Assembly (NCBI GenBank): GCA_963721695.1
Contig: CAVRKU010000030.1
Span: 192,762 to 256,761, forward strand
Direction of reading: 5' to 3'
DNA: 64,000 nt
DNA from: an uncultured Microthrixaceae bacterium
Lineage (GTDB): Bacteria; Actinomycetota; Acidimicrobiia; Acidimicrobiales; VFJN01
Positions 3,773-24,794 of the stretch are shown piece after piece. Each line of letters begins with the position of its first letter. The first letter of the stretch is position 1. Position numbers and translations under genes: made by a program. The notes beneath the pieces were generated by a model, which made no database searches, had not been told where the DNA came from, and saw nothing but the letters and a program-made list of their open reading frames with translations.

Positions 3773-4698
3773 GCACCCTCACACCGACCGGCGGCGTCGG
3801 CCCGGCCAGCGAGCTCGAGGCCCACGAGAACGTCGCCGACGTCGCCGACATCGGTGAGGCTCGCCCCCTCCGGAAGGACATCTGGAAGCGGTTCAAGCGC
3901 AACAAGCTGGCGATGGTCGGGCTCGTCCTCCTCGTCATCCTCGTGCTCACGGCGATCTTCGCTCCCCTCATCGCCCCGTACACGATCACCCAGCGCTTCA
4001 CCGGGGAGTACCGGCAGCCCCCGTCGGCCGATCACTGCTTCGGCACCGACACGATCGGGCGGGATGTGTTCAGCCGGGTGGTCTACGGCGCCCGGGTGTC
4101 GCTGCGGATCGGCATCATCGCCACCGCGATCCTGCTCGTCATCGGTCTCATCCTGGGCGCCGTGGCGGGCTTCTTCAGTGGGATCACCGACACCCTCATC
4201 ATGCGCGTCACCGACGTCTTCCTGGCGATCCCCTACATCGTGCTGGCCGTGGCGATCGCATCCATGCTCGGGCGCAGCGAGAACACCGTGATCGTCGTGC
4301 TCGGCCTCACCGGATGGCTCGGGGTGTGCCGCATCGTCCGGTCGAGCTTCCTCGGCCTCAAGCAGCTCGAGTACGTCGAAGCGGCCACCGCGCTCGGCTA
4401 CTCGCGCATCCGGATCATGTTCCGGCACATCCTGCCGAACGCTCTGCAGCCGATCATCGTCTACGGCACCATCGCCGTCGGCGGCGTGATCCTCTCGGAG
4501 GCGGCGCTTTCGTTCCTCGGCGTCGGGCCCACCGATCCCACCCCGGCGTGGGGGCTCATGGTGTCGGAGGGCAAGAGCCTCCTGGCCGTCGCCCCCCACC
4601 TGCTCTTCTTCCCCGGCATGGCCATCTTCCTCACCGTCCTCGCCTTCGTCTTCGTCGGCGACGGCCTCCGCGACGCACTGGATCCCAAGCTCAAGTGA
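3769..4698 (+). CDS. ABC transporter permease (DppC/OppC-like)
   Basis: The ATG at 3769 overlaps the previous stop (ATGA). The sequence MSTLTP...CFGTDTIGRDVFSRVVYGARVSL...ILPNALQPIIV is typical of OppC. Confidence 0.9.
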   Translation: MSTLTPTGGVGPASELEAHENVADVADIGEARPLRKDIWKRFKRNKLAMVGLVLLVILVLTAIFAPLIAPYTITQRFTGEYRQPPSADHCFGTDTIGRDVFSRVVYGARVSLRIGIIATAILLVIGLILGAVAGFFSGITDTLIMRVTDVFLAIPYIVLAVAIASMLGRSENTVIVVLGLTGWLGVCRIVRSSFLGLKQLEYVEAATALGYSRIRIMFRHILPNALQPIIVYGTIAVGGVILSEAALSFLGVGPTDPTPAWGLMVSEGKSLLAVAPHLLFFPGMAIFLTVLAFVFVGDGLRDALDPKLK

Positions 4699-5798
4699 CC
4701 CTCAACACCGTTGGCACCCGCGAGGTGCTCCTCTCCGTCCGCGACCTCGAGGCCAAGTTCACCACCGATGACGGCGTCGTCCGCGCCGTCGACGGCGTGT
4801 CGTTCGACGTCCATCGCGGCGAGGTCTTCGCCATCGTCGGCGAGTCGGGCTCCGGGAAGTCCGTCACGGCGATGACGATCCTCGGCCTGATCCCGACGGT
4901 CGAGGTCGACAACGGCGAGATCCTCTGGAAGGGCCGCGATCTCGTCACCGCCAGCGAGGACGAGCGCCGCAAGATCCGCGGGGGCGAGATCGCGATGATC
5001 TTCCAGGATCCGCTCACGGCGTTGAACCCGGTGCACACCGTCGGCCGTCAGATCGGCGAGATGGCACGGGTCCACGAGGGGCTCAACAAGAAGGACGCCT
5101 TCGAGCGCGCCATCGAGATGCTCGATCTGGTGGGCATCCCCGAGGCCCGCAAGCGAGCCAAGATGTACCCGCACGAGTACTCGGGCGGGATGCGCCAGCG
5201 GGCGATGATCGCCATGGCGATCACCTGCAAGCCCGACCTCCTCATCGCTGACGAGCCGACCACGGCCCTCGACGTCACCGTGCAGGCCCAGGTGCTCGAG
5301 GTGCTGATCGACATCAAGGACGAGATCGACTCCGGGATCATCCTGATCACGCACGACCTCGGCGTGGTGGCCGGCCTCGCCGACCAGGTGATGGTGATGT
5401 ACGCCGGCCGGCAGGTGGAGATGGGCACCACCGACGAGATCTTCTACGAGTCGCGCCACCCGTACACGCTGGGGCTCCTGGCCAGCCTGCCCCGCCTCGA
5501 CGACGTGGGCGAGGAGCCGCTGCTGCCCATCGCCGGATCGCCGCCCTCGCTCATCCGCCGCCCCGACGGCTGCGCCTTCCACCCGCGGTGCCGGTTCGCC
5601 CGGATCCCGGGCCTGTGCAACACGGAGGTGCCCGAGCTGCGCCTCGTCGCCGGCGACGCGCATCGGTCCGCGTGCCACTACGCCGAGACCCTCGCCGACG
5701 TCACCGTGGAGAGCATGCGGGCGCAGGTCGACGAGGCCGAGCTGGTCGTGGCCGACGGCTTCGTCGAACCGCTGAGCACCGAGGACGCCGAGGCGTGA
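4695..5798 (+). CDS. ABC transporter ATP-binding protein (OppD/DppD-like)
   Basis: The GTG at 4695 overlaps the upstream TGA. Walker A is GESGSGKS, the signature is YSGGMRQR, and Walker B is [12 protein letters not shown]. An oligopeptide C-terminal domain is present. Confidence 0.9.
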
Positions 5799-6853
5799 CC
5801 GACCTCGCCGCCTCCACGGCCGCTCCCGAGATGAACGGCGAGGGTCCGCTGCTGGTCGCGACCGGCCTCGTCAAGGACTTCCCCATCCGCGGCGGCATCC
5901 TCGGGCGCACCGTCGGGATCGTGTCCGCCGTGGCGGGCGTGTCCCTCTCCGTCAAGCGGGGCGAGACCCTCGGCGTGGTGGGGGAGTCGGGCTGCGGCAA
6001 GTCCACCACCGGCCGGATGCTGCTCGACCTCATCCCCCCGACCGCCGGCGAGGTCCTCTTCGACGGCCAGTCGCTCACCAGGACGTCGGGCAAGGAGCTG
6101 TCGCGGATGCGGCGCCGGTTCCAGATCGTGTTCCAGGACCCGTACGCGTCGCTGAACCCGCGCATGACGATCGGCCACACGTTGGGCGAGCCGCTCAAGT
6201 TCCACTTCGGCTGGAAGGACGAGGCCATCACCGAGCGGGTGCAGGAGCTGCTGACCATCGTCGGCCTCTCACCCGAGCACGCCAACCGCTTCCCGCACGA
6301 GTTCTCCGGCGGCCAGCGGCAGCGGGTGGGGATCGCCCGGGCCCTCGCCCTCGAGCCCGATCTGATCGTGCTCGACGAGCCCGTGTCGGCGCTCGACGTC
6401 TCCATCCAGGCCGGCATCGTCAACCTGCTCGAGATGCTCCAGGACCAGCTCGGCCTCGCCTACGTGTTCATCGCCCACGACCTGTCCGTGGTCCGCCACA
6501 TCGCCGACCGCGTCGCGGTCATGTACCTCGGCAAGGTCGTCGAAGAGGGGACGCGCGACCAGATCTACAACGAGCCGGGGCACCCCTACACGCAGGCCCT
6601 GCTGTCCGCCGTGCCCCTCCCGGACCCCCGTCGGGAGCAGGCCCGGGAGCGGATCATCCTCCGCGGCGACGTCCCGTCGCCCGCCGACCCGCCCAGCGGC
6701 TGTCGCTTCCGGACGCGGTGCTGGAAGAAGCTCGAGCTCGAGGAGGGCGGGGTCGACACGTCGGCGTGCTCCGAGCAGGAGCCGATCCTCGACTCGAAGG
6801 AGGTCGGCCACCCGGTGGCCTGCCACTTCACCACCCTCCGCCAGGTCCTCTGA
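5795..6853 (+). CDS. ABC transporter ATP-binding protein (OppF/DppF-like)
   Basis: The GTG at 5795 overlaps the upstream TGA. Walker A is GESGCGKST, the signature is FSGGQRQR, and Walker B is [12 protein letters not shown]. Confidence 0.9.
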
Positions 6854-6928
6854 CCCGTCTGGGTCTCGACGCGGGCCCCTGCTAGCGTTTCCAGGCCCGC
6901 TGGGCCCATTCCTCGCCAGGAGAACTCG

Positions 6929-7159
6929 TTGCTCGAAGCAGTCGTCATCGGCATCCACCTCATCGCCTCGTGTGCGCTGATCGGGCTCGTGCTGCTCCAC
7001 AGCGGCAAGGGCGGCGGCCTCTCCGACATGTTCGGCGGGAGCGTTGGGGCCACCGCGCTCGGTTCGGCGGCGGCTGAACGGAACCTCGACCGGATCACCG
7101 TCGTCGTCGCCCTCATCTTCGCCTTCACCACCACCGGCCTCGCCTTCCTGCTCGACTGA
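6929..7159 (+). CDS. secG: preprotein translocase subunit SecG
   Basis: This is a 76-aa two-TM protein with the LLHSGKGGGLSDMFGG...AERNLDRIT motif. The apparent start is TTG. Confidence 0.85.
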   Translation: MLEAVVIGIHLIASCALIGLVLLHSGKGGGLSDMFGGSVGATALGSAAAERNLDRITVVVALIFAFTTTGLAFLLD

Positions 7160-7167
7160 GGTCACGG

Positions 7168-8760
7168 ATGCCAGCCGGACGCGGGCGGGGCACCTGGGCG
7201 CTCGTCGGCCTCGCGCTGCTCGTCGCGCTCGCGAGCTGCACGAGCGACGACGGCGCCGATGCGGCGACCACCACGACCAGCACCACCACCACGGCTGGGG
7301 CCGACGCGCAGACCATGCGGCTCGGGATCGGTGGGGATCTCGTCGTCGACCCTGTCGAGGCGTCGCTCGCCTCTCCTCAGGACATGATGGTGATCGATCT
7401 GCTGCACGACGGGCTCACCCGCATGGACGACGCCGGGGTGCCGCAGCCTGCACTCGCCGTCTCGTGGCGGGCGAACGCCGACAACACGGCCTTCCGGTTC
7501 GAGCTCGATCGTGAGGGCACGTTCGCCAGCGGCCGTCCGGTGACGTCAGAGGATGTCATCGCGTCGCTCGAGCGGATCATCCTCGAGGGAGACACGTCGC
7601 TGGCCGCGCTGTCGCTGGAGGGGATCACTGGCTTCCGGGCCTTCGCCGAGGGCGAGGCCGACCATGTCAGCGGCTTGCAGGCCCTGACCTCCCGCACCGT
7701 CCGCTTCGAGCTCGAGACCCCCCTCTCGGTGTTGCCCGAGGTGCTCTCCAGCCCTCTGCTCTCGGTGGTCGATGCGGAGTCCATCGAAGGCGACCTGGGC
7801 GAGCTGGACCTGAGCGGCGACTGGGCGGTGGCGTCGAGCGACGACGATGTGCTGACGGTCGAGCGGCGCGAGGGCGCTCCCGACGAGCTGGCGGCCGTGG
7901 AGCTGCACAGCTACGACGACGACGAAGCCGCCTACGACGCGTTCGTGGCGACGGACGTCGACTGGGCCGGCGTTCCTTCGGCGCGCTTCCAGGAAGCGGT
8001 CGACGACTACGGCGACGGCTCCTTCGCTCCCTTCCAGGCCGAGCTGTTCTTCGGGATGAACCTCAGCAACCCGAACCTCGCCGAGGCACCGTTGCGGGTG
8101 GCCATCGTGCGCGCCATCGACCGGGAGGCCATCGTCGACGAGGTGTACTCGGAGCTCGCCGATCCGCTCTCCACGATCGTCCCGGCGGGGATCGTCGGCC
8201 ATGACGCCGACCGCTGTCCGTCGTGTGCCCACGATCCGGAGGAGGCGGCGCAGATCGTCGACCTCCTGTACCCCGACGGCAAGGTGCCGACCATCGGCAT
8301 CGACTTCGACGAGTCTGAGGCCCAGCAGGAGATGGCCGAGATGGTCGCGGCGGACCTCGAGGCCGTCGGCATCCCCACCAAGCTCCGGCCGCGACCGCTC
8401 GACGAGTACAAGCAGTTCGTGGTGTCCGGTCGGCAGCAGCTCTTCAGCTTCGGCTGGATCGGCGCCTACCAGTCACCCGACGCCTACCTGGCACCGCTGT
8501 TCGGTTCGGCCGCCAACGACAACCTCACCCACTACCGATCGCTCCGCGTCGACGGGCGCCTGGCGCTCGCCCGGCTCGGCGCCGACGGGGCCACGAACCT
8601 GCAGCGCTGGGCCATCGCCGAGACCGATGTCCTCGAGGCGGCGGTGGTCGTGCCGATCGCCCAGTTCCGCACCCAGGTGGTGGTCGCGGACCGGGTGGAG
8701 GGCCTCACCCATGCCGTCGACGGGACGGTCGACTGGACCGTCGTCCACATCGTCGACTGA
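7168..8760 (+). CDS. ABC transporter substrate-binding lipoprotein (family 5), intact
   Basis: A lipobox is present (LLVALASCTSDDG). The 530-aa body has SBP family-5 features. The gene starts 9 nt after secG. Confidence 0.8.
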   Translation: MPAGRGRGTWALVGLALLVALASCTSDDGADAATTTTSTTTTAGADAQTMRLGIGGDLVVDPVEASLASPQDMMVIDLLHDGLTRMDDAGVPQPALAVSWRANADNTAFRFELDREGTFASGRPVTSEDVIASLERIILEGDTSLAALSLEGITGFRAFAEGEADHVSGLQALTSRTVRFELETPLSVLPEVLSSPLLSVVDAESIEGDLGELDLSGDWAVASSDDDVLTVERREGAPDELAAVELHSYDDDEAAYDAFVATDVDWAGVPSARFQEAVDDYGDGSFAPFQAELFFGMNLSNPNLAEAPLRVAIVRAIDREAIVDEVYSELADPLSTIVPAGIVGHDADRCPSCAHDPEEAAQIVDLLYPDGKVPTIGIDFDESEAQQEMAEMVAADLEAVGIPTKLRPRPLDEYKQFVVSGRQQLFSFGWIGAYQSPDAYLAPLFGSAANDNLTHYRSLRVDGRLALARLGADGATNLQRWAIAETDVLEAAVVVPIAQFRTQVVVADRVEGLTHAVDGTVDWTVVHIVD

Positions 8761-9413: not shown

Positions 9414-11650
9414 TCAGCGGTGGGCGTCGCCGAGCCAGGGGTCGCGCTTGAGCTCGGGTTGGCAGGCGCGCAACGGATGACGCTTCGGGTCGAGCCACAC
9501 GTCGGTGTCCCAGGGCTCGAAGGCGTTGGACACGTTGCCGAGGCCCGTCGCCGCCAGCTCGGGGAGGTGGCGGAGGATGACCGTCTTGAGGCTGGCGTCG
9601 TCGACCCACTGCATGCCCTCCTCCGTGTACACCTCCGGGCGGTAGTCGTCGGTGTAGAAGCGGTCGGCCTGGAGGCGACGGCTGGCGTTGAGGATGAAGA
9701 TCTGGAACATCGTCTCGCCGAAGCCGAAGTTGGTCGGGCGCTGGGTCTCCGCGAGGGTCCCGATCAGGAGGTCGAGGTTCTCGACGTTGTCGCCGTAGAC
9801 CTCGGCCAGGGTGGCCACCGTGCCCTTGTCGTCGGTGAGATCGGCGAACGAGCGGATCGGGTTCAGGCCGAGCTGGCGACGGAACTCGTTGTAGCGGGGC
9901 ACGCCGCGCTCCCGGGCCCGCACGAGGTCGACTGCCCCCATGTCGAAGACCGGGTTGCCGGGGATGCTCAGCTCCTGCATGAACCGCGGGTAGTTGTTGA
10001 GCACGAGCTGGCCGGGGTGCTGGTTGCCGAACGAGAAGAAGAGGTCGGTCATCCCCACCTGGGCGGTGACCTTCGGCGAGCCGGCCTGCCGGCTGGCGAC
10101 GAACGGCAGGTCCTCGATGGCGGCGCCGGTGTCGTGGCGGCGCAGGTGGAGCTCCTCTGGAAGGAGCGAGTGCAGCCGGTAGACCTCGACGAACTCCTCG
10201 GCCAGCCCGAAGGGCTTGCCGTGCTTGTTGATGTGGTTGCCCACCAGCCCGCCGAGCTCCGGGTTGGCGACGTTGAACTCGGCGACCGTCTTGCGGCGCC
10301 CCGGCTTGCGGAACTTGTACGTGAGCATGCCGTACCAGTTGGCGTTGAGCCCGAGCGCCAGGCCGGGGTTCGGGAGGATCGCCGGCGTCCACTCGATGGA
10401 GTGGATCTTCGCCATGACCGCGGCGTTGACGAGGCGGGCGACGTTGAAGAGCCGGTTGTCGTCCCAGTCCGGGTAGGAGCGCTTCAGGTGATCGCAGATG
10501 GCGTTGTGCTCGCGGGCGAAGAGCGTGTGCAGCATCGCGACGCCGACCCACCAGTTGCGGGTCATCCCGCTGTCCTCGACACCGTTCGTCGCCCGAGCGG
10601 GAGGGTGCCGTCGTCGGTGAGGCGGAGGTGGCCGTCGACGCCGCTCCGCAGGCGGTCCTGGGTGGCCTGGTCGCTGCCGTAGAGCTGCGAGCCGTCCCAC
10701 CAGTGGGTGACCTCGTTGATGTGGGTCACGGGCGTCGGCTCGCCGACCTCTCGACGGGTCGGGTCGGGCTGGGTCCGGCCGATGAACATCCGCTCCTGAC
10801 CGAAGCGCAGCCGGGCGGGATCGTCCTCCTCGAGGGGGATCTCGATGACCTCCTCCTGGAGCATCTCGCCGTGGGTGATCCAGTCGCTGTTCTGGAACTG
10901 GATCCACGACGCCGCGAGGAGGTTCAGGAACGGGACCTCCTGCATGGTCTCGCCCCGGGTGAGCAGCTTCCGGCTGATCAGGCGCGGGTCCGGTGTCAGC
11001 ACCTCCTCGTCGGTCGGACGCCGGATGGCGGAGCTGGCGACGTTGCGCGGGAAGCGGGTGCCGGCCGCACCTTCCTTCGGGTTGGCCAGGTTGTTCCACG
11101 AGCCATCGGCGGTGCGGAAGTGGGTCACGCCCTCCGGCGGCGTGAGGCCCGACGGTGCGAAGCCGACGTTGACGTCCGGGGGATAGGTCGACTTGAGGTT
11201 GTGGCGATCGAGGTGCTCCCGCATGTACGCGAGCGTGAGGATGCCGGGGTAGAGCGGCTTGCGGTACCAGCTCGTCCACACGCGACCTCGGTAGCTCCGG
11301 CCCACGACGTGCATGAGCGACTCGAACACCGTGCCGCCGAGGTTCCCGACCGCGTGCCCGACCCAGTAGCGGAGCTGGCGCCAATGGGGATCGCCGGGGA
11401 GGTTCCGCGGGCTGGGGAGCGTTGGCTGCGGTGGTGGCGCCAGCAGCTCGTCGGCGTCGAAGAAGCGCAGCTCGGGGACGAACACGTCGACCTCGGCGGT
11501 GGCGTTGGCCGAGGCCTTGGCGAGGAGATCGGTCAAGTCCGGGTTGCCAGGGTCGAGGGCCAGCGCGCGCTCGAAGTGCTCCGCGGCCTCCGCGTAGCGC
11601 TCCTCGCGGAAGAGGGACAGCGCGAGGTCGGCTTCACTCGTGCCTGGCAT
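9414..11650 (-). pseudogene. animal-type heme peroxidase / cyclooxygenase-like dioxygenase family protein, one frame break near 10593
   Basis: The N-terminal part lies in ORF 10562-11668 (FRTADGSWNNL, FLNLLAASWIQFQNSDW, THWWDGSQLYG). The C-terminal part lies in ORF 9414-11384 (NWWVGVAMLHTLFAREHNAICD, IHSIEWTPAIL, VRARERGVPRYNEFRR, FGFGETMFQIF). The two segments join at ...DDGTLPLG / ATNGVEDSG with a net -1 shift. Confidence 0.85.
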
Positions 11651-11694
11651 CGGCGGCGAACGTAGCACCGGGTCTGGGAACTACCGTCGGCGCG

Positions 11695-13209
11695 GTGATC
11701 GGGTTCTTCTGGCGAGTGCGCCGCGCGTTCTGGAACGGCCTCGCCGTCCTCAAGTTCCGGGGCCAGAAGCCGGAGGTGATCCCGCCCGGCGGCGCGGATG
11801 CTCGCCCCGTCCGTCTCGTCCCCTTCGTCACCCGGTACCCGGACATCCCTCTCGATGGCACCGTGGTCGCCGACCGCATCCCCACTGACGAGGCCGACAC
11901 CCCGAAGCGGCTGTTCACCCGCCTGCAGCACAAGCTCGTGCGCTGGTTCTCGCCCATGCAGGACGGCGTGCCACCGATCGCGCCGGACGCGGTCGAAGGC
12001 GCTGATGCACGCCTACACGCCGGCCCACCGGGCGTGCTTCCCCACACCCGAGCGGACGCCGGGGCACGACCTCGGCGCCATGGCCGTGGCCAGCCCCTAC
12101 GCCAGCTACCTCCAGGCCACCGGGGAGGGGGCGTACCGGTGGGACCTGCAGGTCCTGAACGGGTTCGAGTGCCACCCGGGGCTGGTCGAGCTGGGGGCCG
12201 TGGTCGACTTCCGCCTCGACGCCGCGACGAGCGCGCTCGCACCCGTGCGCATCGAGACGGCCCTGGGGGTCGAGAAGCCGGACTCGGCCGGGTGGGAGGC
12301 CGCGGCGCGGATGGCGATGTGCTCGATCACGTCGCACGCGTCGATGGTCCGCCACTTCAACTGGCTGCACCTCACCGGCGGACCGGTGTTCGAGGCCGTC
12401 ACCCGCAACCACCTCCCGGCCGACCACCCGGTGCGTCGCCTGGTGTGGGCCCACGTGTTCGGCACGCACGGTGGCAACGACCTCGTCACCGAGATCCTCA
12501 TGTCGGAGGGCGGCGAGTTCGACGCGATCTTCAGCCTCACGCACCGCGGGAAGTGCCAGCTCTTCGAAGCGACCGCGGGCGACTTCGACCTGGCCGCCAT
12601 CAACCCGTTGACCGACCTGGTGCGTCGCGGCCTCGCCGGCAGCGGCGTGCCCACCCCGGCTCACGAGAACTGGAGCGGCCTCTACGGCGTGTTCCTCGAC
12701 CACGCCCATCGGTACCTCGGGCTGTACTACGCGTCCGACGACGACCTCGCGAACGACCAGGCGCTCGGCGCATGGATCGACGACCTCGACGCCCGGCTGC
12801 CGCACGGGGTGCGGACCGTCCTGGGCCCGGCCACGACGCTCGACGGGGTGGCCTCGCTCGCTGGCGACGATCGTCTACCTGGCCACCGTCGAGCACGAGA
12901 TCACCGGCAGTGGGCTCTGGGACTACCAGCTGTGGAGCGACACCTCGCCGGTGCGCGTGTACGAGGACGGCCGCCGTCTCCCGGTCGGACGTGTACCAGC
13001 GGCTGGTGAACGCCAACTTCAACCTGAACGTGCCCCGCACGATGCTCCTCGACGACGCGATGCCCGGCCTGGCCGTCGACCCCGCCGGCGCGTGGGCGTT
13101 CCAGGAGCTCCAGCAGGACCTCCTGGGGTTCCAGGCCAAGCTCGACACCACCGCGCCGGCGCCGTGGCGCATGGAGCCTCGGCGCCTCAAGGCCAACATC
13201 AACGCGTAG
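11695..13209 (+). pseudogene. lipoxygenase-like non-heme iron protein (catalytic-domain-only size), three frame breaks; start tentative
   Basis: Four co-linear segments are present. Breaks lie near 11997, 12868 and 12986, and all are +1. LOX-like motifs are HFNWLH (H-x4-H), RNHLPADHPVRRLVWAHVFGT (compare HP-x3-LL-x-PH), TVEHEITGSGLWDY (compare HAAVNFGQYDY), and the C-terminal ...RLKANINA. Confidence 0.55.
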
Positions 13210-14827
13210 CGATCGCCCCGAGGTCGGCGAGGAAGCGCAGCGTGCTGATCGACGGACAGAAGAGGTAGGCCGCGCCGACGGTGGTGGTGAACCGGGGGAA
13301 GCCGGTGAGGACGACGGGGTCGCCGCCGTCGATCGGGATCTCGAACCGGCTCGTCTCCGGGCGGTTGGCGCCGATGATCGGGTCGTTCGTGCCGGTGACG
13401 CGCGGATCCTGCAGCCCGAGGTTCGCCCAGTCGTACATGATCGCCTCGTACTGGGCGATCAGGCTGGCGCACATGAAGCTCCCGAGCAGCCCTCGACGCT
13501 CGCCGTCGTGCGGGTGGGCGGGGTCGTAGGGGGGCCCGTACGGCATGCCCCGCCGCACGATCGGCCGGGTGAAGCTGGCGCTGCGCTGCACGATCTGGCT
13601 GCCCCGGGGGTTCGTGCGCCGGATGTGGGCGCCGAGGGGGCAGTGGGTGCCGTCGAAGTCGTCGAGGTCCGCCACCTCGTCGATGTAGTCGAAGTCGTTC
13701 AGGTAGGCCGGGTCCAAGGGGTCGGGCAGGCCCGGACCGAGGAACCGGTCCCGGCCGGGGTGACCCGGCGTCCAGTGGGACAGCGAGAGCGGCTCGCCGT
13801 TGCGCCACCGGCCCATGAGCTTGGCGGCCACCCGCTCCTTGTCCCACACCGGCTCGCCGGGCGCTGGCGCCGCGCCCCTGCGTCGACGGGCGAGCTCCGC
13901 GTTGATCTGCTCGGCGCTGGTCTCGAGGAACTCCTCGAAGGCGTGCACGTCCTGCTCGAGCACCCGAAAGGCGTTGAAGCAGCCGTTCACCCCGAGCTCG
14001 ACGGTCCGGTGCCCGAGGTCCGCCTCCGGCATCTGCCAGCTGACCCCGGGGAACGTGGTGCGGTAGTGCTCGCCCGCGGTCGCCGGGCCGCCGCCCTCGT
14101 CGACGCGGCCGAGGAGGACGGCGCCGACCGTGGCGATCGGCTGGGCGTCCATCCGGCCGACGTAGTCGCCGTTCACGACGAAGCGGGGCTGCGAGATGCT
14201 GTCGCGGTAGCCGAAGTGGACGGTGTCCCGGTCGTTCGGGTCCGCCGTGTAGGTGTCGAGGGTGGCGCCGTCGAGCCGCGCGGTGATCGAGAAGGCGCCG
14301 GACGCTCGCCACGCCGCCTCGATGCGTCCGGCGGCCGCTTCCAGCTGGGCCGTGTCGTCGCGTGCGTAGATCGTCCACATCAGGTGGACCGCATCGGGAT
14401 CGCCGAGGCCGTCCCGCCAGTGCTCCGGCGCGCTCGCATCGATGTCGCCCACCTTCGGGGCTCGGCGGGCGGCTCCTTCGCGGAACTCCTCGGGGAAGGT
14501 GGCGAGCCACTCGTCGCGCAGGCCCAGCGCCCGGAGACCGGTGGCGGTCACGCCCACGTTGAGGCACGTCGGCGGCTTCCCGTCGTCCCACGACTCGGCG
14601 GTGGTGAGCGACGGCAGACCATCCGCCCCGGTGAGGACCGCGCCGATGAACGCGCGGGCGGCGGCGGCATCCTCGACCCGCACCACCAGGTGCCGGACGT
14701 GGCGCATGTTGTAGCCCCGGAGGATGTTCCCCTGGATGTCGGCGAGGATCGAGCCGTCGGGGTCGTCGATGCCGATGCCCGCGGGCAGGACGGAGGGCTC
14801 GGTGGCCGGCTGGCCCATCGACTCCAT
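13199..14827 (-). CDS. DyP-type (dye-decolorizing) heme peroxidase, intact
   Basis: Motifs are DIQGNILRGY, VHFGYRDSISQP and CPLGAHIRRTNPR (proximal His region). The protein is about 542 aa from the ATG at 14827. Confidence 0.9.
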   Translation of the reverse strand: MESMGQPATEPSVLPAGIGIDDPDGSILADIQGNILRGYNMRHVRHLVVRVEDAAAARAFIGAVLTGADGLPSLTTAESWDDGKPPTCLNVGVTATGLRALGLRDEWLATFPEEFREGAARRAPKVGDIDASAPEHWRDGLGDPDAVHLMWTIYARDDTAQLEAAAGRIEAAWRASGAFSITARLDGATLDTYTADPNDRDTVHFGYRDSISQPRFVVNGDYVGRMDAQPIATVGAVLLGRVDEGGGPATAGEHYRTTFPGVSWQMPEADLGHRTVELGVNGCFNAFRVLEQDVHAFEEFLETSAEQINAELARRRRGAAPAPGEPVWDKERVAAKLMGRWRNGEPLSLSHWTPGHPGRDRFLGPGLPDPLDPAYLNDFDYIDEVADLDDFDGTHCPLGAHIRRTNPRGSQIVQRSASFTRPIVRRGMPYGPPYDPAHPHDGERRGLLGSFMCASLIAQYEAIMYDWANLGLQDPRVTGTNDPIIGANRPETSRFEIPIDGGDPVVLTGFPRFTTTVGAAYLFCPSISTLRFLADLGAIATR

Positions 14828-14832
14828 CGCGC

Positions 14833-15486
14833 TCACCAACCGATCTTGAACTTGTCGCGGATCTGCGCCACCGAGAAGCCGGGGTAGGCGCGGTACGCGA
14901 AGAGCTGGACGTTGCGGGGAGGGTCGGATCGCCGGCACTCGTCGAGGAGCAGGACGAGCCGCCGGGTGACCTTCACCGGGTCGCGGTCGTCGGCGGGGCC
15001 GAGCTGGAGCACGGTGTCGGGGAACACCACCTGCAGGGCGTCCCGCTCCATCACCCAGTCGATGAACTCGTCGGGGTGCTCCTCGACGGGCAGGGGCGGC
15101 GGGTCCTTCACGTGCGAGAGCAAGCCGTCGAACGCGGCGCCGACGTTGTAGATGAAGTCGCGGATGTAGTTCGAGAAGTCGCCGTCGTAGAAGCTGAACA
15201 TGCACAGGTTGCCGTCGACGATGGTGAAGCGGCCGAAGTGCACCAGCTGCGTGTTGTCGAGTCCGGCGATCACCTCCTCGACGGCCCCGCCGAGCGTCTG
15301 GATCAGGCGGGCGTGGCCGAGGGGCGAGTTGTCGGCCAGCGGCATCACCAGGTTCATGGGCACCTGGACGTTGTCCGACGGGTTCGGCGAGAACGGGCGC
15401 GACGGGAGCACCGGCGGGTCCTTCCGACGCCAGATGGCGGTGAGCATCCTGACCAGCAGGCGCTCGCCCATGTCTGTGATCGACAT
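14833..15486 (-). CDS. hypothetical protein tightly coupled to the DyP gene
   Basis: This 217-aa ORF has normal amino-acid composition. Its stop lies 5 nt before the DyP ATG. It contains the motif LVHFGRFTIVDGNLCMFSFYDGDFSNYIRDF. I do not recognise the family. Confidence 0.6.
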   Translation of the reverse strand: MSITDMGERLLVRMLTAIWRRKDPPVLPSRPFSPNPSDNVQVPMNLVMPLADNSPLGHARLIQTLGGAVEEVIAGLDNTQLVHFGRFTIVDGNLCMFSFYDGDFSNYIRDFIYNVGAAFDGLLSHVKDPPPLPVEEHPDEFIDWVMERDALQVVFPDTVLQLGPADDRDPVKVTRRLVLLLDECRRSDPPRNVQLFAYRAYPGFSVAQIRDKFKIGW

Positions 15487-15566: not shown

Positions 15567-16755
15567 ATGGCTGACGACGTCTCGCCCCGGCTGATCGACC
15601 AGATCATCGACGGGATGGCGGTCGACTTCCCCGACCACCAGCCGGGCACCCGCCCGATCCACACCAAGGGGATCGCGGTGGCCGGCCAGTTCCGGGCCAC
15701 GCGCGATGCCAAGGAGTACTGCGTCGCTCCGCAGTTCGACGGGAGCTGGACTCCGGCCATCGTGCGGTTCTCGAACGGCAACGGCCAGCCGGACCCCGAC
15801 GGACGCCTCCAGCCGCGCGGGATGGCCGTGAAGCTGTACCCCGGCGGCACCCGATCGCCGGGTCCGGGCACGGAGCACCAGGATCAGGCCACCGTCGCCG
15901 GGTCGCGGGTGGAGGAGCAGCCGATCGTGCCGGCGACGCCGGGGGGACAGGTCCAGGAGACCGACCTCATCTGCATGTCGGTGCCGGTCTTCATGGCGCA
16001 GAGTGCCGAGGGCGTCCTCGAGTTCGAGAAGGCGTACGTGCCCCGCAAGGTGCGGCCGCCCAGCCTTCCTCAAGCGCCTCGGCGCCCTCGCCCGCATGAG
16101 CCCGCTCCCGCCTCAGGAGGCGGGGGTCTCGATGTCGGGGAACGAGGGCTTCCTCGAGTGGGCAAGGGGCTTCGAGCCGGCCCAGGGGTTCCTGCTCGAG
16201 CTCTCGCTCGAGCGGCTGCCGGCGAGCTACGCGCGCACCGTGTACAACGCGGTGCACGCCTTCGAGGTCGAGGGCGCGGACGGCACCCGTCGCATGGTGC
16301 GGTTCACGTTCGAGCCGTCCGACGGCGTCCGCAACGAAGGACCGCCCGAGGCCGCCCAGTCACCGATCGCCTCGTTCCTCAAGCCCCACCCGGTCAACGA
16401 GTACGGACAGACGCTCCCTCCCGACTACCTCCAAGATGAGCTCCGCCAGCGCATCAGCTACGCCCCGAGCCGCTTCAACCTCCGCATGCAGATCGCCGAT
16501 CCCTGGGACGACACCGCTGATCCCACCAAGGCATGGCCCACCACCCGGCGGCGCGTCCTCATGGGCACCCTCTTCCTGTCCCACGTGCTCACCGACCAGG
16601 TGGGCGGTTGCGAGGAGCTGAGCTTCAACCCCGGTCGGCTCCTGCCGGGGATGGCGCCGTCCGACGATCCGGTCCTGCGCCAGCGAGTGGCGGTGTACGA
16701 GGAGTCGTACCGGCGGCGGATGGAGGCGCGACGTCAGGGCTGCCCGGTCAGCTGA
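15567..16755 (+). pseudogene. small catalase-related hemoprotein (catalase-like peroxidase family), one frame break near 16055
   Basis: The N-terminal segment reads RPIHTKGIAVAGQFRA...VRFSNGNG...RGMAVKL. The C-terminal segment (ORF 16003 frame) reads YNAVHAFEVEG...RMVRFTFEP...LSFNPGRLLPGMAPSDDPVLRQRVAVYEESYRRR. The break is net +1. Confidence 0.8.
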
Positions 16756-19401
16756 CGCCGGGCCAGCGCGATCTCGCCGCGGACGTACTCCATCGCCCCG
16801 TCGAACTCCATCGCCGCCCCGGTGGCGGCCCGGCGTTCGAAGGCATCGGCGCCGAGCACGTTGCGGAGGTGCTCCACCACCTCGGGCAGGTTCGCGATCA
16901 TGCTGACGCCGTGGCGGGTGCTGGTGCCGTAGATCGTCGCGGCGATCTCGGGCCGGTCGATCTGGCTGAACAGCACCGCCACCTGGGCGAGGGTGGTGGC
17001 GACGCTGCCGTGGTTGCCGGCTCGGTGGTAGGACGCCACGGCCGAGTCGAACAGCTCGAGGGCTTGCCCCGGGTCGCCGAGGACCGCTTCGAGGGCGGCG
17101 ATCTCCCGCAGGGTGTTGGCCTCGAAGAACGGGAGACGGTGCTCCCTCGTGTAGTCGAGGACCTCGTCCATGGCGTCCATGGCCAGGCCCGGGTCCTTGT
17201 CGGCGTAGGCCCGCGCGTAGGCCTCCAGCGCGAACGCGATCCAGAACGGGTTCTGCCGGGCGCGGGCGGCGGCCACCGCGTCGTCGGCCACCGCGCGGGC
17301 CTCCTCCGATCGCCCGACTCCCGGCAGCACCGCGGTCGAGAAGATGAGACCGATGAGGTGGGCCAGCCCCTCCTGGGCCATGAGGACGTCGCAGATCTCG
17401 AGCCACCGGTCGAGACGCCCGGCGTAGCGATGCCCGATGGCCTCCCACGCCAGGCTCCAGCCCGCCTCGAAGGAGTCGTACCGGGGATCCGCCTTCGAGG
17501 GCCGCCGCCGCCCGGGCGTAGCCGACGGCTTCGTCGGGCCGCCCCGTGAGCGCGCACACGCTGGCCGCCAGGTACACGCGGGGGAGGGCGGTGAGGTCGG
17601 CCTCGGTGGCCGCGGGCAGGAGCTCGACCGCCCAGCCGACGGGCTCGAAGCGCTGGAGCACCATGGCGACGAGCGTGGTGTGGGCCGCGATCGACGCCGC
17701 CGCCGACAGGTCGTCGTGGTCGGTGGCCCATCGGAAGGCCGCCCGCAGGTCAGCGAACTCCCGCTCCACCCAGTCGAGGGCGACGCGCTGCTCGGGGCCG
17801 TTCCACCGCTCCCACGCGGCGGCGGCCTCGGCGGCGAAGTACGACGCGTGCAGGTGCCGCACCTCGTCGGTGATGCCCTGCCGGTCGAGCTGGTCCTCGC
17901 CGAAGTGACGGATCGTCTCGAGCAGGCCGTACCGGGTCTGCCCCGAGACCGGCTCCGCGGTGATCAGGGACTTGCGCACCAACGAGTCGAGCAGGTCGAG
18001 CACGGCGAGCCGATCCATCCGAGGGTCCGCACAGATGTGCACCGCGGCGGCCACCCCGAACCCGCCGGCGAACACCGCGCACCGGTCGAGCAGGTTCCGC
18101 TCGTCGGCCGCGAGCAGGTCGTAGGACCACGACACCGCCGCGAGCAGGGTCTGATGGTGCTGCGGGCCCCGTCCGGTGCCCGAGAGGAGTCGGAAGCGAT
18201 CACCGAGGTGGTCGAGCACCTCCTGGGCGCTCATCGACACCATGCGGGCGGCGGCCAGCTCGATGGCGAGGGCGATCCCATCGAGGCGCTGGCAGATCTC
18301 GGTCACCGCCGCGGCCTCGTCGGGAGCGTCGAGCGAGAACCGGGGTTGCACGGCCTGCGCTCGTTGGAGGAACAGCTCGACCGCGGGCGCGTCGAGCCCG
18401 GCTCGTGCGTCGAGGGGCGGAACGGGCCACCGGTGCTCCGCCGCGAGGCCCAGGCCCTCGCGGCTGGTGGCCAGGACCCGGACGGTGGTGGCCTGGCTCA
18501 GGATCGCGTCGACGAGGTCCGCGGCCGCGGACAGGACGTGCTCGCAGTTGTCGACCACGACGAGCAGCCGGCGGCCCGAGAGGGCCTCGACGATGCTCTC
18601 GGTCACCGTCCCGCCTGGTCCGGCCGTGACCCCGAGGACCGTCGCCATGGCGTCGGGCACGGCCGCGGGATCGCTGATCGTCGCCAGCTCGACCACCCAG
18701 ACGCCGTCGGTGAACTCGTGGGTCAGCTCGGCGGCGACCTGCACCGAGAGCCGGGTCTTGCCGACCCCGCCCGCACCGGTGAGCGTCACGAGCCGGTGGG
18801 CCTTGACGAGCTCGCCGACCTCCTTCACCTCCACCTCACGGCCGACGAAGCTCGTGACCTGCACCGGCAGGTTCCCGGGGGTGGCGTCCAGCGTCCGCAG
18901 CGCCGGGAACGTGGTCTCGAGGCCGTCCGCCCGCACCTGGTAGAGGCGGACCGACGCCGCCAGGTCCCGCAGCCGGTGCTCGCCCAGATCGACCAGGTCG
19001 ACCCCGGTGACCAGCGCGGCCGCTGAGTCGCTCACGACGATCTGGCCGCCGTGCCCGGTGCCCATCACCCGGGCGGCGCGGTTCAGGGCCGGCCCGAAGT
19101 AGTCGTCGTCACGCTGCTGCACCTCGCCGCTGGCGACCCCCATCCGCACCGGGAGCTCGAGCCGTCGCTGCGCCGCCACGGCGGCCTCGATCGCATCGCG
19201 AGCCGAGTCGAACACGGCGCACACCCCGTCGCCGGTGTGCTTGAACACCTCGCCCCCGTGGGCTTGGACGACCGATCGCATCAGGTCGTCGTGCACTGCG
19301 AGCGCCGCTCGCATCCCGTCCGCGTCGGACTCCCACATCCGGGTGGAACCCTGGATGTCGGTGAAGAGGAAGGTCACCGTCCGCACAGGCCGATCAGCCA
19401 T
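16734..19401 (-). pseudogene. class III adenylate/guanylate cyclase - P-loop NTPase (STAND-like) - TPR signalling protein, one frame break near 17488
   Basis: The cyclase domain reads TFLFTDIQGSTRMWE...GDGVCAVF...NRAARVM. The P-loop is GAGGVGKTRL, and DNCEHV follows. The TPR-like C-terminus continues in ORF 16734-17381 after ...AAAALE / ADPRYDSFEAGW, a net +1 break. Confidence 0.85.
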
Positions 19402-24500: not shown

Positions 24501-24794
24501 AGCTGGTCGGCGGCGCATCCGCCATCGCCGCCGCCCTCGCCGAACAGGTCCTGGCCGCCGACCCCTACCTCGAGCGGGCGCCACCGCCTGGCGATCGCCG
24601 CCCACCTGCAGGGCCGGGACCGGACGGGCACGGCGGCCGCTGTGGGCCGCCTCACCCGAGTCCTCGACGAGCTCGACGCCCACCCCGATCCCGCCACCCA
24701 GATCCTCCTGCGCAACGCCGCCCAGTGGCTCGGCCCGGTCGACCTGACCACCGACGTCGACGAGCCGGCATCCCACCTGACCTCGGGCCCCTGA
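21594..24794 (+). pseudogene. large regulator with N-terminal P-loop NTPase and C-terminal winged-helix plus BTAD (SARP-type) domains, about 14 frame breaks
   Basis: The ATG at 21594 has AGGAGG 5 nt upstream. The Walker A context is VTTVVAGAGFGKSVLLGQ. The C-terminal part reads VAIRVLGPLAVHHDGLP...RVRELLCLLVV...AIDLLWPD...ANLRVTLGHLQRLLEP...HWRGRPLADL. The homologous text hops between frames in the order 0,2,0,1,2,0,1,2,0,1,2,0,1,2,0. Confidence 0.7.

What the first reader, a model, noticed from the sequence alone, without database searches (positions are those of the whole stretch)
11695..13209. Lipoxygenase-like protein with a non-canonical metal-ligand set
After frame repair, the protein aligns by eye with LOX catalytic-domain landmarks at four points.
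- H-x4-H: HFNWLH.
- The HP-x3-L-x2-H helix: HPVRRLVWAH.
- The HAAVNFGQYDY block, which reads here as HEITGSGLWDY.
- A short C-terminal tail.

The Asn (or His/Ser) ligand position is Gly, and the C-terminal residue is Ala (...ANINA) instead of Ile or Val. At about 500 aa it has no PLAT/beta-barrel domain. It could be a LOX with altered coordination (the C-terminal carboxylate can still bind), a different metal, or a non-oxygenase relative.
Basis: partly seen in the sequence, partly recalled or inferred. Interest (0 to 1): 0.6.

Follow-up and report, generated by a model that had tools for sequence, protein, structure and literature searches.

The report
Divergent lipoxygenase paired with alpha-dioxygenase
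The gene encodes a small, divergent lipoxygenase-type metal enzyme that lacks one of the usual metal-binding residues, and in hundreds of soil bacteria it sits next to, or is fused to, a haem fatty-acid dioxygenase, which points to an undescribed bacterial fatty-acid oxidation pathway.

Summary
Window 11695-13209 (+) runs from a GTG start to a TAG stop and encodes a 503-aa lipoxygenase (LOX)-fold protein once three single-base insertions are removed (about 11998, 12861 and 12987). Indels occur all over this window, so these are most likely assembly errors, not decay. An intact homologue 97% identical exists.

Profile, profile-profile and fold comparisons place it in the LOX catalytic domain. 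The HxxxxH pair, the third His and the exact C-terminus align with canonical ligands. The fifth ligand (Asn/His/Ser) is a nearly invariant Gly, and the terminal Ile is Ala (...NINA in 110 of 115 relatives). There is no PLAT domain.

New findings:
- It belongs to a large uncharacterised clade found in many phyla.
- In 76 of 82 loci it lies beside an alpha-dioxygenase-like haem enzyme, and in several metagenomic proteins it is fused C-terminally to one.
- In one genome it is fused to a DyP peroxidase.
- This lineage adds a DyP, a catalase-related haem protein and a cyclase-STAND (signalling NTPase) regulator.

The most likely role is the non-haem partner in a coupled fatty-acid oxygenation pathway. 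Metal, substrate and reaction are untested. I rate it a new variant of a known kind, with moderately high interest.

The parts
11695..13209 (+). LOX-like gene, from GTG start to TAG stop. It gives 503 aa after removal of three single-base insertions at about 11998, 12861 and 12987.
   Evidence: The product is 97% identical to the intact 501-aa P0001. The fold is LOX.
12353..12370 (+). HFNWLH, the H-x4-H pair (H220, H225) aligned with the first two metal-ligand histidines of LOX.
   Evidence: hmmsearch and hhalign alignments to 11R-LOX, CspLOX2 and cyanobacterial LOX. Both His are invariant in 44 relatives.
12425..12454 (+). HPVRRLVWAH, the conserved non-ligand 'HP...PH' LOX helix motif.
   Evidence: Aligned to NHPxxxLLxPH of canonical LOX. 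Both His are invariant.
12894..12926 (+). HEITGSGLWDY. H400 (12894-12896) is the third ligand His. G404 (12906-12908) occupies the Asn/His/Ser ligand position.
   Evidence: VEHEITGSG aligns with (A/P/V)QHAAVN(F/Y)(P/S). The His is invariant and the Gly nearly invariant.
13192..13206 (+). C-terminal ANINA. The terminal Ala aligns with the terminal Ile whose carboxylate binds the metal in LOX.
   Evidence: RLKANINA aligns with RIPQSINI end to end. 110 of 115 full-length relatives end in [N/S/T]INA.
9417..11668 (-). Divergently transcribed alpha-dioxygenase-like haem protein (An_peroxidase with an N-terminal TPR region). One frameshift lies near 10590.
   Evidence: The orthologue scores Pfam PF03098 at 371 bits and rice alpha-DOX 4kvj at E 1.5e-113. 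It is adjacent to the LOX-like gene in 76 of 82 loci.
13199..14806 (-). DyP-type peroxidase, convergent with the LOX-like gene and overlapping its 3' end by 11 bp. The start coordinate is approximate.
   Evidence: The orthologue matches DyP_N and PDB DyPs at E 5e-31. It is fused in frame to the LOX-like domain in L067.
14836..15486 (-). Conserved 217-aa protein of unknown function, upstream of the DyP gene.
   Evidence: tblastn gives 72% identity to the L002 orthologue. It has no Pfam hit and co-occurs in 14 loci.
15579..16740 (+). Small catalase-related haem protein. One frameshift lies near 16062.
   Evidence: The orthologue matches Pfam Catalase at E 1.4e-19. Its best PDB match is 3e4w, a 320-residue chain deposited as 'putative uncharacterized protein', at E 2.5e-32.
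16749..19401 (-). Class III nucleotidyl-cyclase domain, AAA_16/STAND NTPase and TPR signalling protein. One frameshift lies near 17495.
   Evidence: Homologues flank the pair in about 46 loci.

Best explanation
The gene encodes a roughly 503-aa, PLAT-less, divergent lipoxygenase-fold metalloenzyme.

It keeps three His ligands and a precisely positioned C-terminal carboxylate (Ala). It has lost the fifth protein ligand (Asn/His/Ser is now Gly). It has also lost the two Gln/Glu positions that hydrogen-bond that ligand in canonical LOX (now Ser and Leu/Val). The predicted site is therefore 3-His/1-carboxylate with an extra solvent- or substrate-accessible coordination position.

The enzyme does not act alone. 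Its clade is almost always encoded next to an alpha-dioxygenase-like haem fatty-acid dioxygenase, and in some proteins it is fused downstream of one. In this lineage the locus also carries a DyP peroxidase, a catalase-related haem protein and a cyclase-STAND signalling protein.

I propose it is the non-haem partner of a coupled fatty-acid oxygenation (oxylipin-type) pathway. My preferred sub-mechanism, at about 45%, is that it still performs LOX-type chemistry: a metal-bound hydroxide abstracts a hydrogen from a fatty acyl chain and O2 adds, giving a hydroperoxide. The neighbouring haem enzymes would then consume that hydroperoxide, and it could also prime the tyrosyl radical of the alpha-dioxygenase.

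Shown: homology, fold, ligand mapping, conservation, synteny and fusions. Inferred: metal binding, lipid substrate, reaction and signalling role. The three frameshifts in the window are most likely assembly errors.
For: Fold and homology.

Ligand mapping and conservation:
- H218, H223, H398, I499 and N500 are invariant, and G402 and A501 at least 90% conserved, in 44 sequences down to 46% identity.
- 110 of 115 proteins end in [N/S/T]INA.
- The end-to-end MAFFT alignment gives RLKANINA against RIPQSINI.
- The modelled C-terminal tail has pLDDT about 91, so it is not predicted as a floppy tail.

Functional coupling:
- An alpha-DOX-like gene lies within the flank in 76 of 82 non-redundant loci from Acidimicrobiia, Pseudonocardiales, Geodermatophilus, Sorangium, Archangium, Nitrospira, Rokubacteria, Pyrinomonadaceae, Burkholderiales and Verrucomicrobia. 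In 47 of these it is immediately upstream on the same strand, with a median gap of 33 nt.
- Natural An_peroxidase-LOX-like fusions exist: P0133, P0134 (1143 aa, seen in three independent sources), P0136, P0137, P0145 and P0156.
- A DyP-LOX-like fusion exists: P0132, which is the L067 ORF 4264-7494.
- In every fusion the LOX-like domain is C-terminal, as a free terminal carboxylate requires.

The partner looks catalytically competent. It matches rice alpha-DOX at E 1.5e-113 and conserves the catalytic Tyr (YRLH), the proximal His and the carboxylate-binding His311/Thr316/Arg559 equivalents (residue roles from PMC8720084).

Lipid context:
- The catalase-related neighbour best matches PDB 3e4w.
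- A fatty-acid desaturase lies next to the pair in Hyalangium.
- A patatin-like phospholipase lies upstream of the pair in at least one Burkholderiales locus (L057; homologous ORFs in L054, L071, L042 and L035).

Assembly errors:
- Frameshifts also occur in the peroxidase, catalase and STAND genes.
- Same-strand frame switches occur throughout the window.
- There are 33 gap openings in 13.8 kb against a 97%-identical relative.
- Codon bias is intact in every frame segment of the gene.
Against: - No experiment exists on any member. Metal content and activity are unknown.
- I could not read model coordinates, so the geometry of the three His and the C-terminus around a metal is inferred from alignment, not measured.
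- From memory, unverified: replacing the Asn ligand of soybean LOX-1 with small residues costs iron and activity.
- Most host phyla are not known for polyunsaturated fatty acids, which canonical LOX chemistry needs.
- Known natural fusions pair a hydroperoxide generator with a converter, so a fusion of two dioxygenases would be unprecedented.
- Gly at the fifth position also occurs in sister clades that have no alpha-DOX neighbour, so the ligand loss is not specifically tied to the pairing.
- The window protein itself falls just below the Pfam gathering score.
Confidence: 0.7

Rival explanations
1. It is a hydroperoxide-converting enzyme, not a dioxygenase. The alpha-DOX-like partner makes a fatty-acid hydroperoxide (2-hydroperoxide). 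The LOX-like metal site, with its extra open position, binds and isomerises, cleaves or reduces that product, in the way eLOX3 acts as a hydroperoxide isomerase.
For: - Every known natural fusion in oxylipin pathways joins one generator to one converter (coral AOS-LOX, fungal DOX-CYP; my knowledge and PMC13049297).
- The partner keeps all alpha-DOX catalytic and carboxylate-binding residues, so it is a plausible generator.
- The Asn ligand and its Gln network are remodelled together.
- Host phyla mostly lack polyunsaturated substrates (my knowledge).
Against: - The DyP-LOX-like fusion and the catalase-related neighbour already supply hydroperoxide consumers, which makes the LOX-like protein the more natural generator.
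- Gly at this position also occurs in sister clades without an alpha-DOX neighbour.
Confidence: 0.3
2. It is a non-catalytic LOX-fold protein: a lipid-binding, substrate-delivery or regulatory subunit of the alpha-DOX-like enzyme that no longer binds a redox metal.
For: One canonical ligand and its second-sphere network are lost. The protein is obligatorily paired with a catalytic partner. Its score against the Pfam LOX model is weak.
Against: The three ligand His are invariant and the C-terminal end is exactly conserved across sequences down to about 40% identity and across phyla. The LOX-like domain is C-terminal in all fusions. These are the constraints expected only if the metal site is used.
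Confidence: 0.08
3. In this genome the gene is a true pseudogene, and the three +1 insertions are real.
For: There are three frame changes in 1.5 kb, somewhat denser than in the neighbouring genes. One insertion (12861) is not in a homopolymer.
Against: - Frame switches are frequent across the whole 64-kb window and in four of the six cluster genes.
- Once the three bases are removed, the sequence is 97% identical to an intact orthologue, with no stop codons or further damage.
- The GC3 codon signal is intact in every segment.
- The close relative L001 itself shows fragmented genes typical of indel-prone long-read assemblies.
Confidence: 0.12

Closest known systems
Cyanobacterial 'mini-lipoxygenases' without a PLAT domain (Cyanothece CspLOX2, PDB 5med; Nostoc/Anabaena mini 9R-LOX)
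   Same: Both have the LOX catalytic fold without an N-terminal beta-barrel. The H-x4-H motif, the third His and the C-terminal carboxylate position align (Foldseek TM 0.71, E 9e-17; profile E 6e-17). The C-terminal tails are recognisably related (SINI against NINA).
   Different: The canonical enzymes have Asn as fifth ligand, a Gln/Glu second sphere and a terminal Ile. Here these are Gly, Ser/Leu and Ala. Identity is only about 15%. This clade is paired with an alpha-DOX-like haem enzyme.
Coral allene oxide synthase-8R-lipoxygenase fusion (PDB 3dy5), and the Anabaena catalase-related-LOX fusion (the latter from my knowledge)
   Same: A haem enzyme is fused N-terminally to a LOX domain that must stay C-terminal. 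This locus also holds a catalase-related small haem protein.
   Different: Here the fused haem partner belongs to the peroxidase-cyclooxygenase superfamily (alpha-DOX-like) or is a DyP, not a catalase. The LOX domain is canonical in the coral protein.
Plant and cyanobacterial fatty-acid alpha-dioxygenases (rice 4kvj, Arabidopsis 4hhr, CalDOX/LepDOX in PMC8720084), compared with the neighbouring gene
   Same: The match is E 1.5e-113 over about 540 residues. The catalytic Tyr, the proximal His and the His311/Thr316/Arg559 equivalents are conserved.
   Different: The bacterial partner carries an extra N-terminal TPR region of about 200 aa in this subclade. Its distal-His position is variable and is Ser in this window. 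It is coupled to a LOX-like gene, and none of the papers I searched mentions such a pairing.
Fungal DOX-CYP fusion enzymes (linoleate diol synthases, PpoA)
   Same: An An_peroxidase-family fatty-acid dioxygenase is fused to a second oxygen-chemistry domain that acts on the same lipid (PMC13049297).
   Different: The second domain there is a cytochrome P450. Here it is a non-haem LOX-fold domain.

Membership tests
Lipoxygenase (catalytic domain, Pfam PF00305) | LOX catalytic-domain fold | tested here: met
   The AF2 model has pLDDT 94.6 and pTM 0.94. The 50 best Foldseek PDB hits are all LOX, with TM 0.64-0.77 (normalised to the query) and E about 1e-16.
Lipoxygenase (catalytic domain, Pfam PF00305) | Score above the curated Pfam gathering threshold | tested here: inconclusive
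   The window protein scores 21.9 bits against a cut-off of 23.6. Relatives pass, for example P0134 at 45 bits, and most have precomputed hits. hhalign to canonical LOX gives 99.1% probability.
Lipoxygenase (catalytic domain, Pfam PF00305) | Two metal-ligand His in an H-x4-H motif on the long central helix | tested here: met
   HFNWLH aligns with SHLARTH and THLLRCH. Both His are invariant.
Lipoxygenase (catalytic domain, Pfam PF00305) | Third metal-ligand His (HAAVN helix) | tested here: met
   The His of VEHEI aligns with the His of QHAAVN and is invariant.
Lipoxygenase (catalytic domain, Pfam PF00305) | Fifth protein ligand (Asn, His or Ser) four residues after the third His | tested here: not met
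   The position is Gly in the window and in at least 90% of 44 relatives. The Gln three residues further on is Leu/Val, and the Glu/Gln four residues before the first ligand His is Ser.
Lipoxygenase (catalytic domain, Pfam PF00305) | The protein ends exactly at the residue (Ile, rarely Val) whose main-chain carboxylate binds the metal | tested here: inconclusive
   The chain end aligns with the canonical end and is conserved, but the residue is Ala.
Lipoxygenase (catalytic domain, Pfam PF00305) | Non-haem Fe or Mn content and dioxygenation of a 1,4-pentadiene fatty acid | not testable with these tools
   This needs ICP-MS or EPR and activity assays on recombinant protein.
Eukaryote-type LOX with N-terminal PLAT/C2-like domain | N-terminal PLAT beta-barrel | tested here: not met
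   The protein is 503 aa with no PLAT hit in Pfam. The model starts with a helix at residues 2-21. Absence of PLAT is common in bacterial LOX (PMC13319228).
Fatty-acid alpha-dioxygenase (neighbouring gene 9417-11668) | An_peroxidase fold with the catalytic Tyr and proximal His (YRxH), and the carboxylate-binding His311/Arg559 and Thr316 | tested here: met
   Pfam gives 371 bits. Rice alpha-DOX matches at E 1.5e-113 with these residues aligned. Residue roles are taken from PMC8720084. The window translation shows YRLH, KIHSIEWT and SRRL.
Fatty-acid alpha-dioxygenase (neighbouring gene 9417-11668) | Distal haem His (His157 of the rice enzyme) | tested here: not met
   The window and L001 have Ser (WIQFQNSDW). 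Across the loci the position is His in 49, Gly in 14, Arg in 9, Ser in 4 and Asn in 1.

The most novel reading that the evidence does not exclude
The LOX-like/alpha-DOX-like pair is the core of an unrecognised, widespread bacterial oxylipin signalling module. In different lineages it is joined by a patatin-like phospholipase, a fatty-acid desaturase, DyP and catalase-related hydroperoxide enzymes, and cyclase-STAND, GAF-histidine-kinase or Ser/Thr-kinase-STAND proteins.

In this reading the LOX fold has been repurposed. With only four protein ligands, the metal has two adjacent open positions. It could bind the partner's alpha-hydroperoxy or alpha-hydroxy acid product directly, which no known LOX does. 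The resulting lipid would be sensed by the adjacent signalling protein.
Probability: 0.2. Interest if true: 0.8.

Novelty: new variant of a known kind. Interest (0 to 1): 0.62.

Why it matters
In the canonical LOX sequences compared here, and in the literature as I know it, the metal site has five protein ligands. A large, conserved natural clade with only four (three His plus a terminal Ala carboxylate) would test how much of that site is needed for hydrogen abstraction, for tuning the redox potential and for choosing the metal.

The near-obligate pairing with an alpha-dioxygenase-like haem enzyme, and the occasional fusion to one, defines a two-enzyme lipid-oxidation module in common soil phyla (Acidimicrobiia, Pseudonocardiales, myxobacteria, Nitrospira, Burkholderiales, Acidobacteriota). 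Oxylipin biology in these groups is essentially unexplored.

Cultured carriers exist: Sorangium cellulosum So0157-2, Archangium gephyra, Pseudonocardia eucalypti, Geodermatophilus maliterrae and Hyalangium gracile. The question is therefore directly testable. Such enzymes could also serve fatty-acid oxyfunctionalisation.

Tried and rejected
- NCBIfam gave no hit for the repaired protein.
- A profile of only the last 120 residues found no LOX in PDB. The C-terminal homology shows up only with profile-profile or full-length alignment.
- A search seeded with a CspLOX2 segment returned only 11 partial cyanobacterial LOX proteins. Five of them, all with an intact C-terminus, served as the canonical reference (A3).
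- Eight literature searches or look-ups found no description of this clade, of Gly or Ala ligand variants, or of an alpha-DOX/LOX pairing.
- I tried to test whether Gly at the fifth position tracks the alpha-DOX pairing. The Asn-type sister proteins sit on contigs too short to tell. The Gly-type sisters P0176 and P0184 have no alpha-DOX neighbour. The idea that the Gly evolved for the pairing is therefore weakened.
- I considered the N-terminal 'RRAFW' as a Tat signal and rejected it. The segment is a confident, conserved helix and is retained internally in the fusion proteins.
- I considered pseudogenisation and judged it less likely than assembly error.
Full report
**1. What is in the sequence**

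The window is 70.7% G+C. Between 11695 and 13209 on the + strand there is no single long ORF. The coding signal passes through three frames.

A GC3-based frame model places the switches at about 11995, 12859 and 12970 and shows strong codon bias in every segment. Comparison with P0001, an intact 501-aa homologue from a 631-kb metagenomic contig, identifies three single-base insertions at about 11998, 12861 and 12987. Removing them gives a 503-aa protein from GTG 11695 to TAG 13207-13209 that is identical to P0001 at 488 of 501 positions.

**2. Are the frameshifts real?** Probably not.
- The same 10-kb neighbourhood has further frameshifts in the peroxidase, catalase-like and STAND genes.
- The frame model shows same-strand frame switches all over the window, for example thirteen between 21.6 and 24.8 kb.
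- The window differs from the 97%-identical locus L001 by 33 gap openings in 13.8 kb.
- L001 itself carries fragmented genes.

This is the signature of an indel-prone assembly. I give a true pseudogene about 12%.

**3. Is it lipoxygenase-like?** Yes.
- Pfam LOX is only a near miss for this single sequence (21.9 bits against 23.6), and NCBIfam is silent.
- phmmer finds rabbit 15-LOX at 6e-10 and about 50 other LOX structures.
- A profile of 44 relatives (A1) finds 11R-LOX at 2.6e-20 and Cyanothece LOX2 at 6e-17.
- hhalign against canonical cyanobacterial LOX C-terminal halves gives 99.1% probability and E 1.2e-18. The 322 aligned columns run to the penultimate residue of both profiles.
- An AlphaFold2 model of P0001 is very confident (pLDDT 94.6, pTM 0.94). 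Its 50 best Foldseek matches in PDB are all lipoxygenase catalytic domains, with TM 0.64-0.77 normalised to the query.
- There is no PLAT domain. That is usual for bacterial LOX (PMC13319228).

**4. The metal site**

Numbering is for the window protein; P0001 numbering is two lower. Three independent alignments agree (hmmsearch, hhalign, MAFFT).
- H220 and H225 (HFNWLH) match the two His of the canonical H-x4-H.
- H400 (VEHEI) matches the His of QHAAVN.
- G404 sits where the Asn ligand is.
- The chain ends at A503, where canonical enzymes end in Ile (RLKANINA against RIPQSINI).

Across 44 relatives down to 46% identity the three His are invariant, and the Gly and the terminal Ala are at least 90% conserved. 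Of 115 full-length relatives, 110 end in [N/S/T]INA.

The residues that flank the Asn in canonical sequences are also replaced. These are Glu/Gln four residues before the first ligand His, and Gln three residues after the Asn. They become Ser and Leu/Val. That whole side of the site has therefore been remodelled together.

The modelled C-terminal tail has high confidence (about 91), consistent with a buried tail. I could not read coordinates, so the clustering of the ligands around a metal remains an inference.

**5. The family**

An exhaustive profile search of 1.84 billion representatives gives 2,504 hits at E up to 1e-3 and 192 at E up to 1e-30. A scan of one genome per species found 151 carriers. 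They include:
- Acidimicrobiia, Pseudonocardiales and Geodermatophilus
- Sorangium cellulosum and Archangium gephyra
- Nitrospira, Rokubacteria and Pyrinomonadaceae
- Burkholderiales and Verrucomicrobia

Databases label these proteins 'lipoxygenase family protein' or 'arachidonate 15-lipoxygenase'. I found no paper on them.

More distant sister clades have Gly, Asn or Ser at the fifth position. Their C-terminal residues are Ser, Thr, Val, Ala, Asn, Gln or Lys, and several carry signal peptides.

**6. Genomic context, the main new result**

In 76 of 82 non-redundant loci an An_peroxidase-family gene lies within the flank.
- 47 lie immediately upstream on the same strand (median gap 33 nt).
- 13 lie downstream on the same strand.
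- 15 are divergent, as in this window.
- 1 is convergent.

Three of the six exceptions are very short contigs.

The partner resembles plant fatty-acid alpha-dioxygenase: rice 4kvj matches at E 1.5e-113. It keeps the catalytic Tyr and proximal His (YRLH) and the carboxylate-binding His311, Thr316 and Arg559 equivalents. Residue roles are from PMC8720084, and the motifs are visible in the window translation. Its distal-His position varies: Ser in the window and in L001, and across the loci His in 49, Gly in 14 and Arg in 9.

The representative search also revealed natural fusions.
- An_peroxidase-LOX-like: P0133 (1115 aa), P0134 (1143 aa, recovered from three independent sources), P0136, P0137, P0145 and P0156.
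- DyP-LOX-like: P0132, which is the uninterrupted ORF 4264-7494 of the short-read MAG locus L067.

In every fusion the LOX-like domain is C-terminal and ends at the last profile position. This is what a ligand role for the free terminal carboxylate demands.

**7. The wider locus**

The window lineage adds four genes, and the set recurs in 13-15 Acidimicrobiia-type loci.
- A D-type DyP (13199-14806, −), convergent with the LOX-like gene and overlapping it by 11 bp.
- A conserved 217-aa unknown (14836-15486, −).
- A small catalase-related protein (15579-16740, +). Its best PDB match is the 320-residue chain 3e4w. From memory, that is a mycobacterial protein reported to act on organic and fatty-acid hydroperoxides.
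- A cyclase-AAA_16-TPR STAND protein (16749-19401, −).

Across phyla, the third recurrent neighbour is a signalling protein.
- A cyclase-STAND protein occurs in about 46 loci.
- A GAF-histidine kinase occurs in Nitrospira and next to the P0134 fusion.
- A Ser/Thr-kinase-STAND protein occurs in myxobacteria.

A fatty-acid desaturase follows the pair in Hyalangium. A patatin-like phospholipase precedes it in the Burkholderiales locus L057, and homologous ORFs occur in L054, L071, L042 and L035.

**8. Interpretation**

The conserved His triad, the fixed chain end and the C-terminal placement in fusions argue that the metal site is used. The pairing and fusions argue that the protein works on the same lipid as the alpha-DOX-like enzyme.

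Which enzyme makes the hydroperoxide and which converts it cannot be decided here.

I slightly prefer a LOX-type dioxygenase (about 45%):
- all characterised LOX-fold enzymes perform this chemistry;
- the Asn is only a weak ligand in plant LOX (my knowledge);
- the DyP fusion and the catalase-related neighbour look like hydroperoxide consumers.

The rival, a hydroperoxide-converting enzyme acting on the alpha-DOX product, gets about 30%:
- generator-plus-converter fusions are the known precedent;
- the site is remodelled;
- these hosts have few polyunsaturated lipids.

A non-catalytic role (about 8%) fits the conservation poorly.

**9. Verdict**

The protein is homologous to LOX but fails one defining feature of the canonical family, the fifth ligand. 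I therefore file it as a divergent LOX-like clade: a new variant of a known kind. What makes it interesting is less the single substitution than the conserved four-ligand site combined with near-obligate coupling to an alpha-dioxygenase-like enzyme.

Noticed in passing
window 1-64000, e.g. 21670-24765: A GC3 frame model shows many same-strand frame switches across the whole window, including thirteen segments of 78-537 nt between 21.6 and 24.8 kb. This indicates a high indel error rate, probably from an uncorrected long-read assembly. Any ORF-based reading of this window needs frame repair.
   Followed up: partly
window about 11080-11110 (− strand; motif WIQFQNSDW in ORF 10562-11668): The alpha-DOX-like partner has Ser where plant alpha-DOX has the distal haem His157. 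The close relative L001 shares the Ser, so it is not a sequencing error. Across the loci the position is His in 49, Gly in 14, Arg in 9, Ser in 4 and Asn in 1. This suggests altered haem activation in many partners.
   Followed up: partly
window 11668-11695: The divergent alpha-DOX-like and LOX-like genes have start codons only about 26-45 bp apart. That leaves almost no room for two promoters, so overlapping promoters or leaderless transcripts are possible.
   Followed up: no
window 13199-13209: The LOX-like gene and the convergent DyP gene overlap by 11 bp at their 3' ends. The same overlap is seen in L001 and L002.
   Followed up: no
window 14836-15486 (−): A conserved 217-aa protein with no Pfam match always accompanies the DyP gene in the Acidimicrobiia-type clusters (14 loci). 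Its function is unknown.
   Followed up: partly
window 27031-28603 (+): This is a second, frameshifted paralogue of the cyclase-STAND regulator (42% identity to the L002 protein), about 8 kb from the cluster.
   Followed up: no
L067 4264-7494; also L008 and L044: In some Acidimicrobiia-type MAGs the cluster is co-directional, in the order 217-aa gene, DyP, LOX-like, alpha-DOX-like. In L067, DyP and LOX-like form one 1076-aa ORF. The window lineage has the LOX-like gene inverted relative to this arrangement.
   Followed up: partly
contig of P0134 (JGI 3300056388), genes after the fusion: The An_peroxidase-LOX-like fusion gene is followed by a RoxA-like di-haem cytochrome c (the rubber-oxygenase family) and a GAF-histidine kinase.
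   Followed up: no
P0136, P0145, P0156 (1542-1768 aa): These longer fusions carry an unannotated stretch of about 350-600 aa between the An_peroxidase and LOX-like domains. It has no Pfam hit.
   Followed up: no
P0184 / L088 (GCA_004210305.1) and similar sister-clade proteins (P0186, P0192, P0194, P0198, P0207, P0220, P0247, P0260): This is a more distant LOX-like clade from low-G+C organisms. It has N-terminal signal peptides, Gly or Ser at the fifth-ligand position and C-termini ending in Ser, Thr, Ala, Lys or Gln. In L088 it sits among housekeeping genes with no alpha-DOX neighbour.
   Followed up: partly
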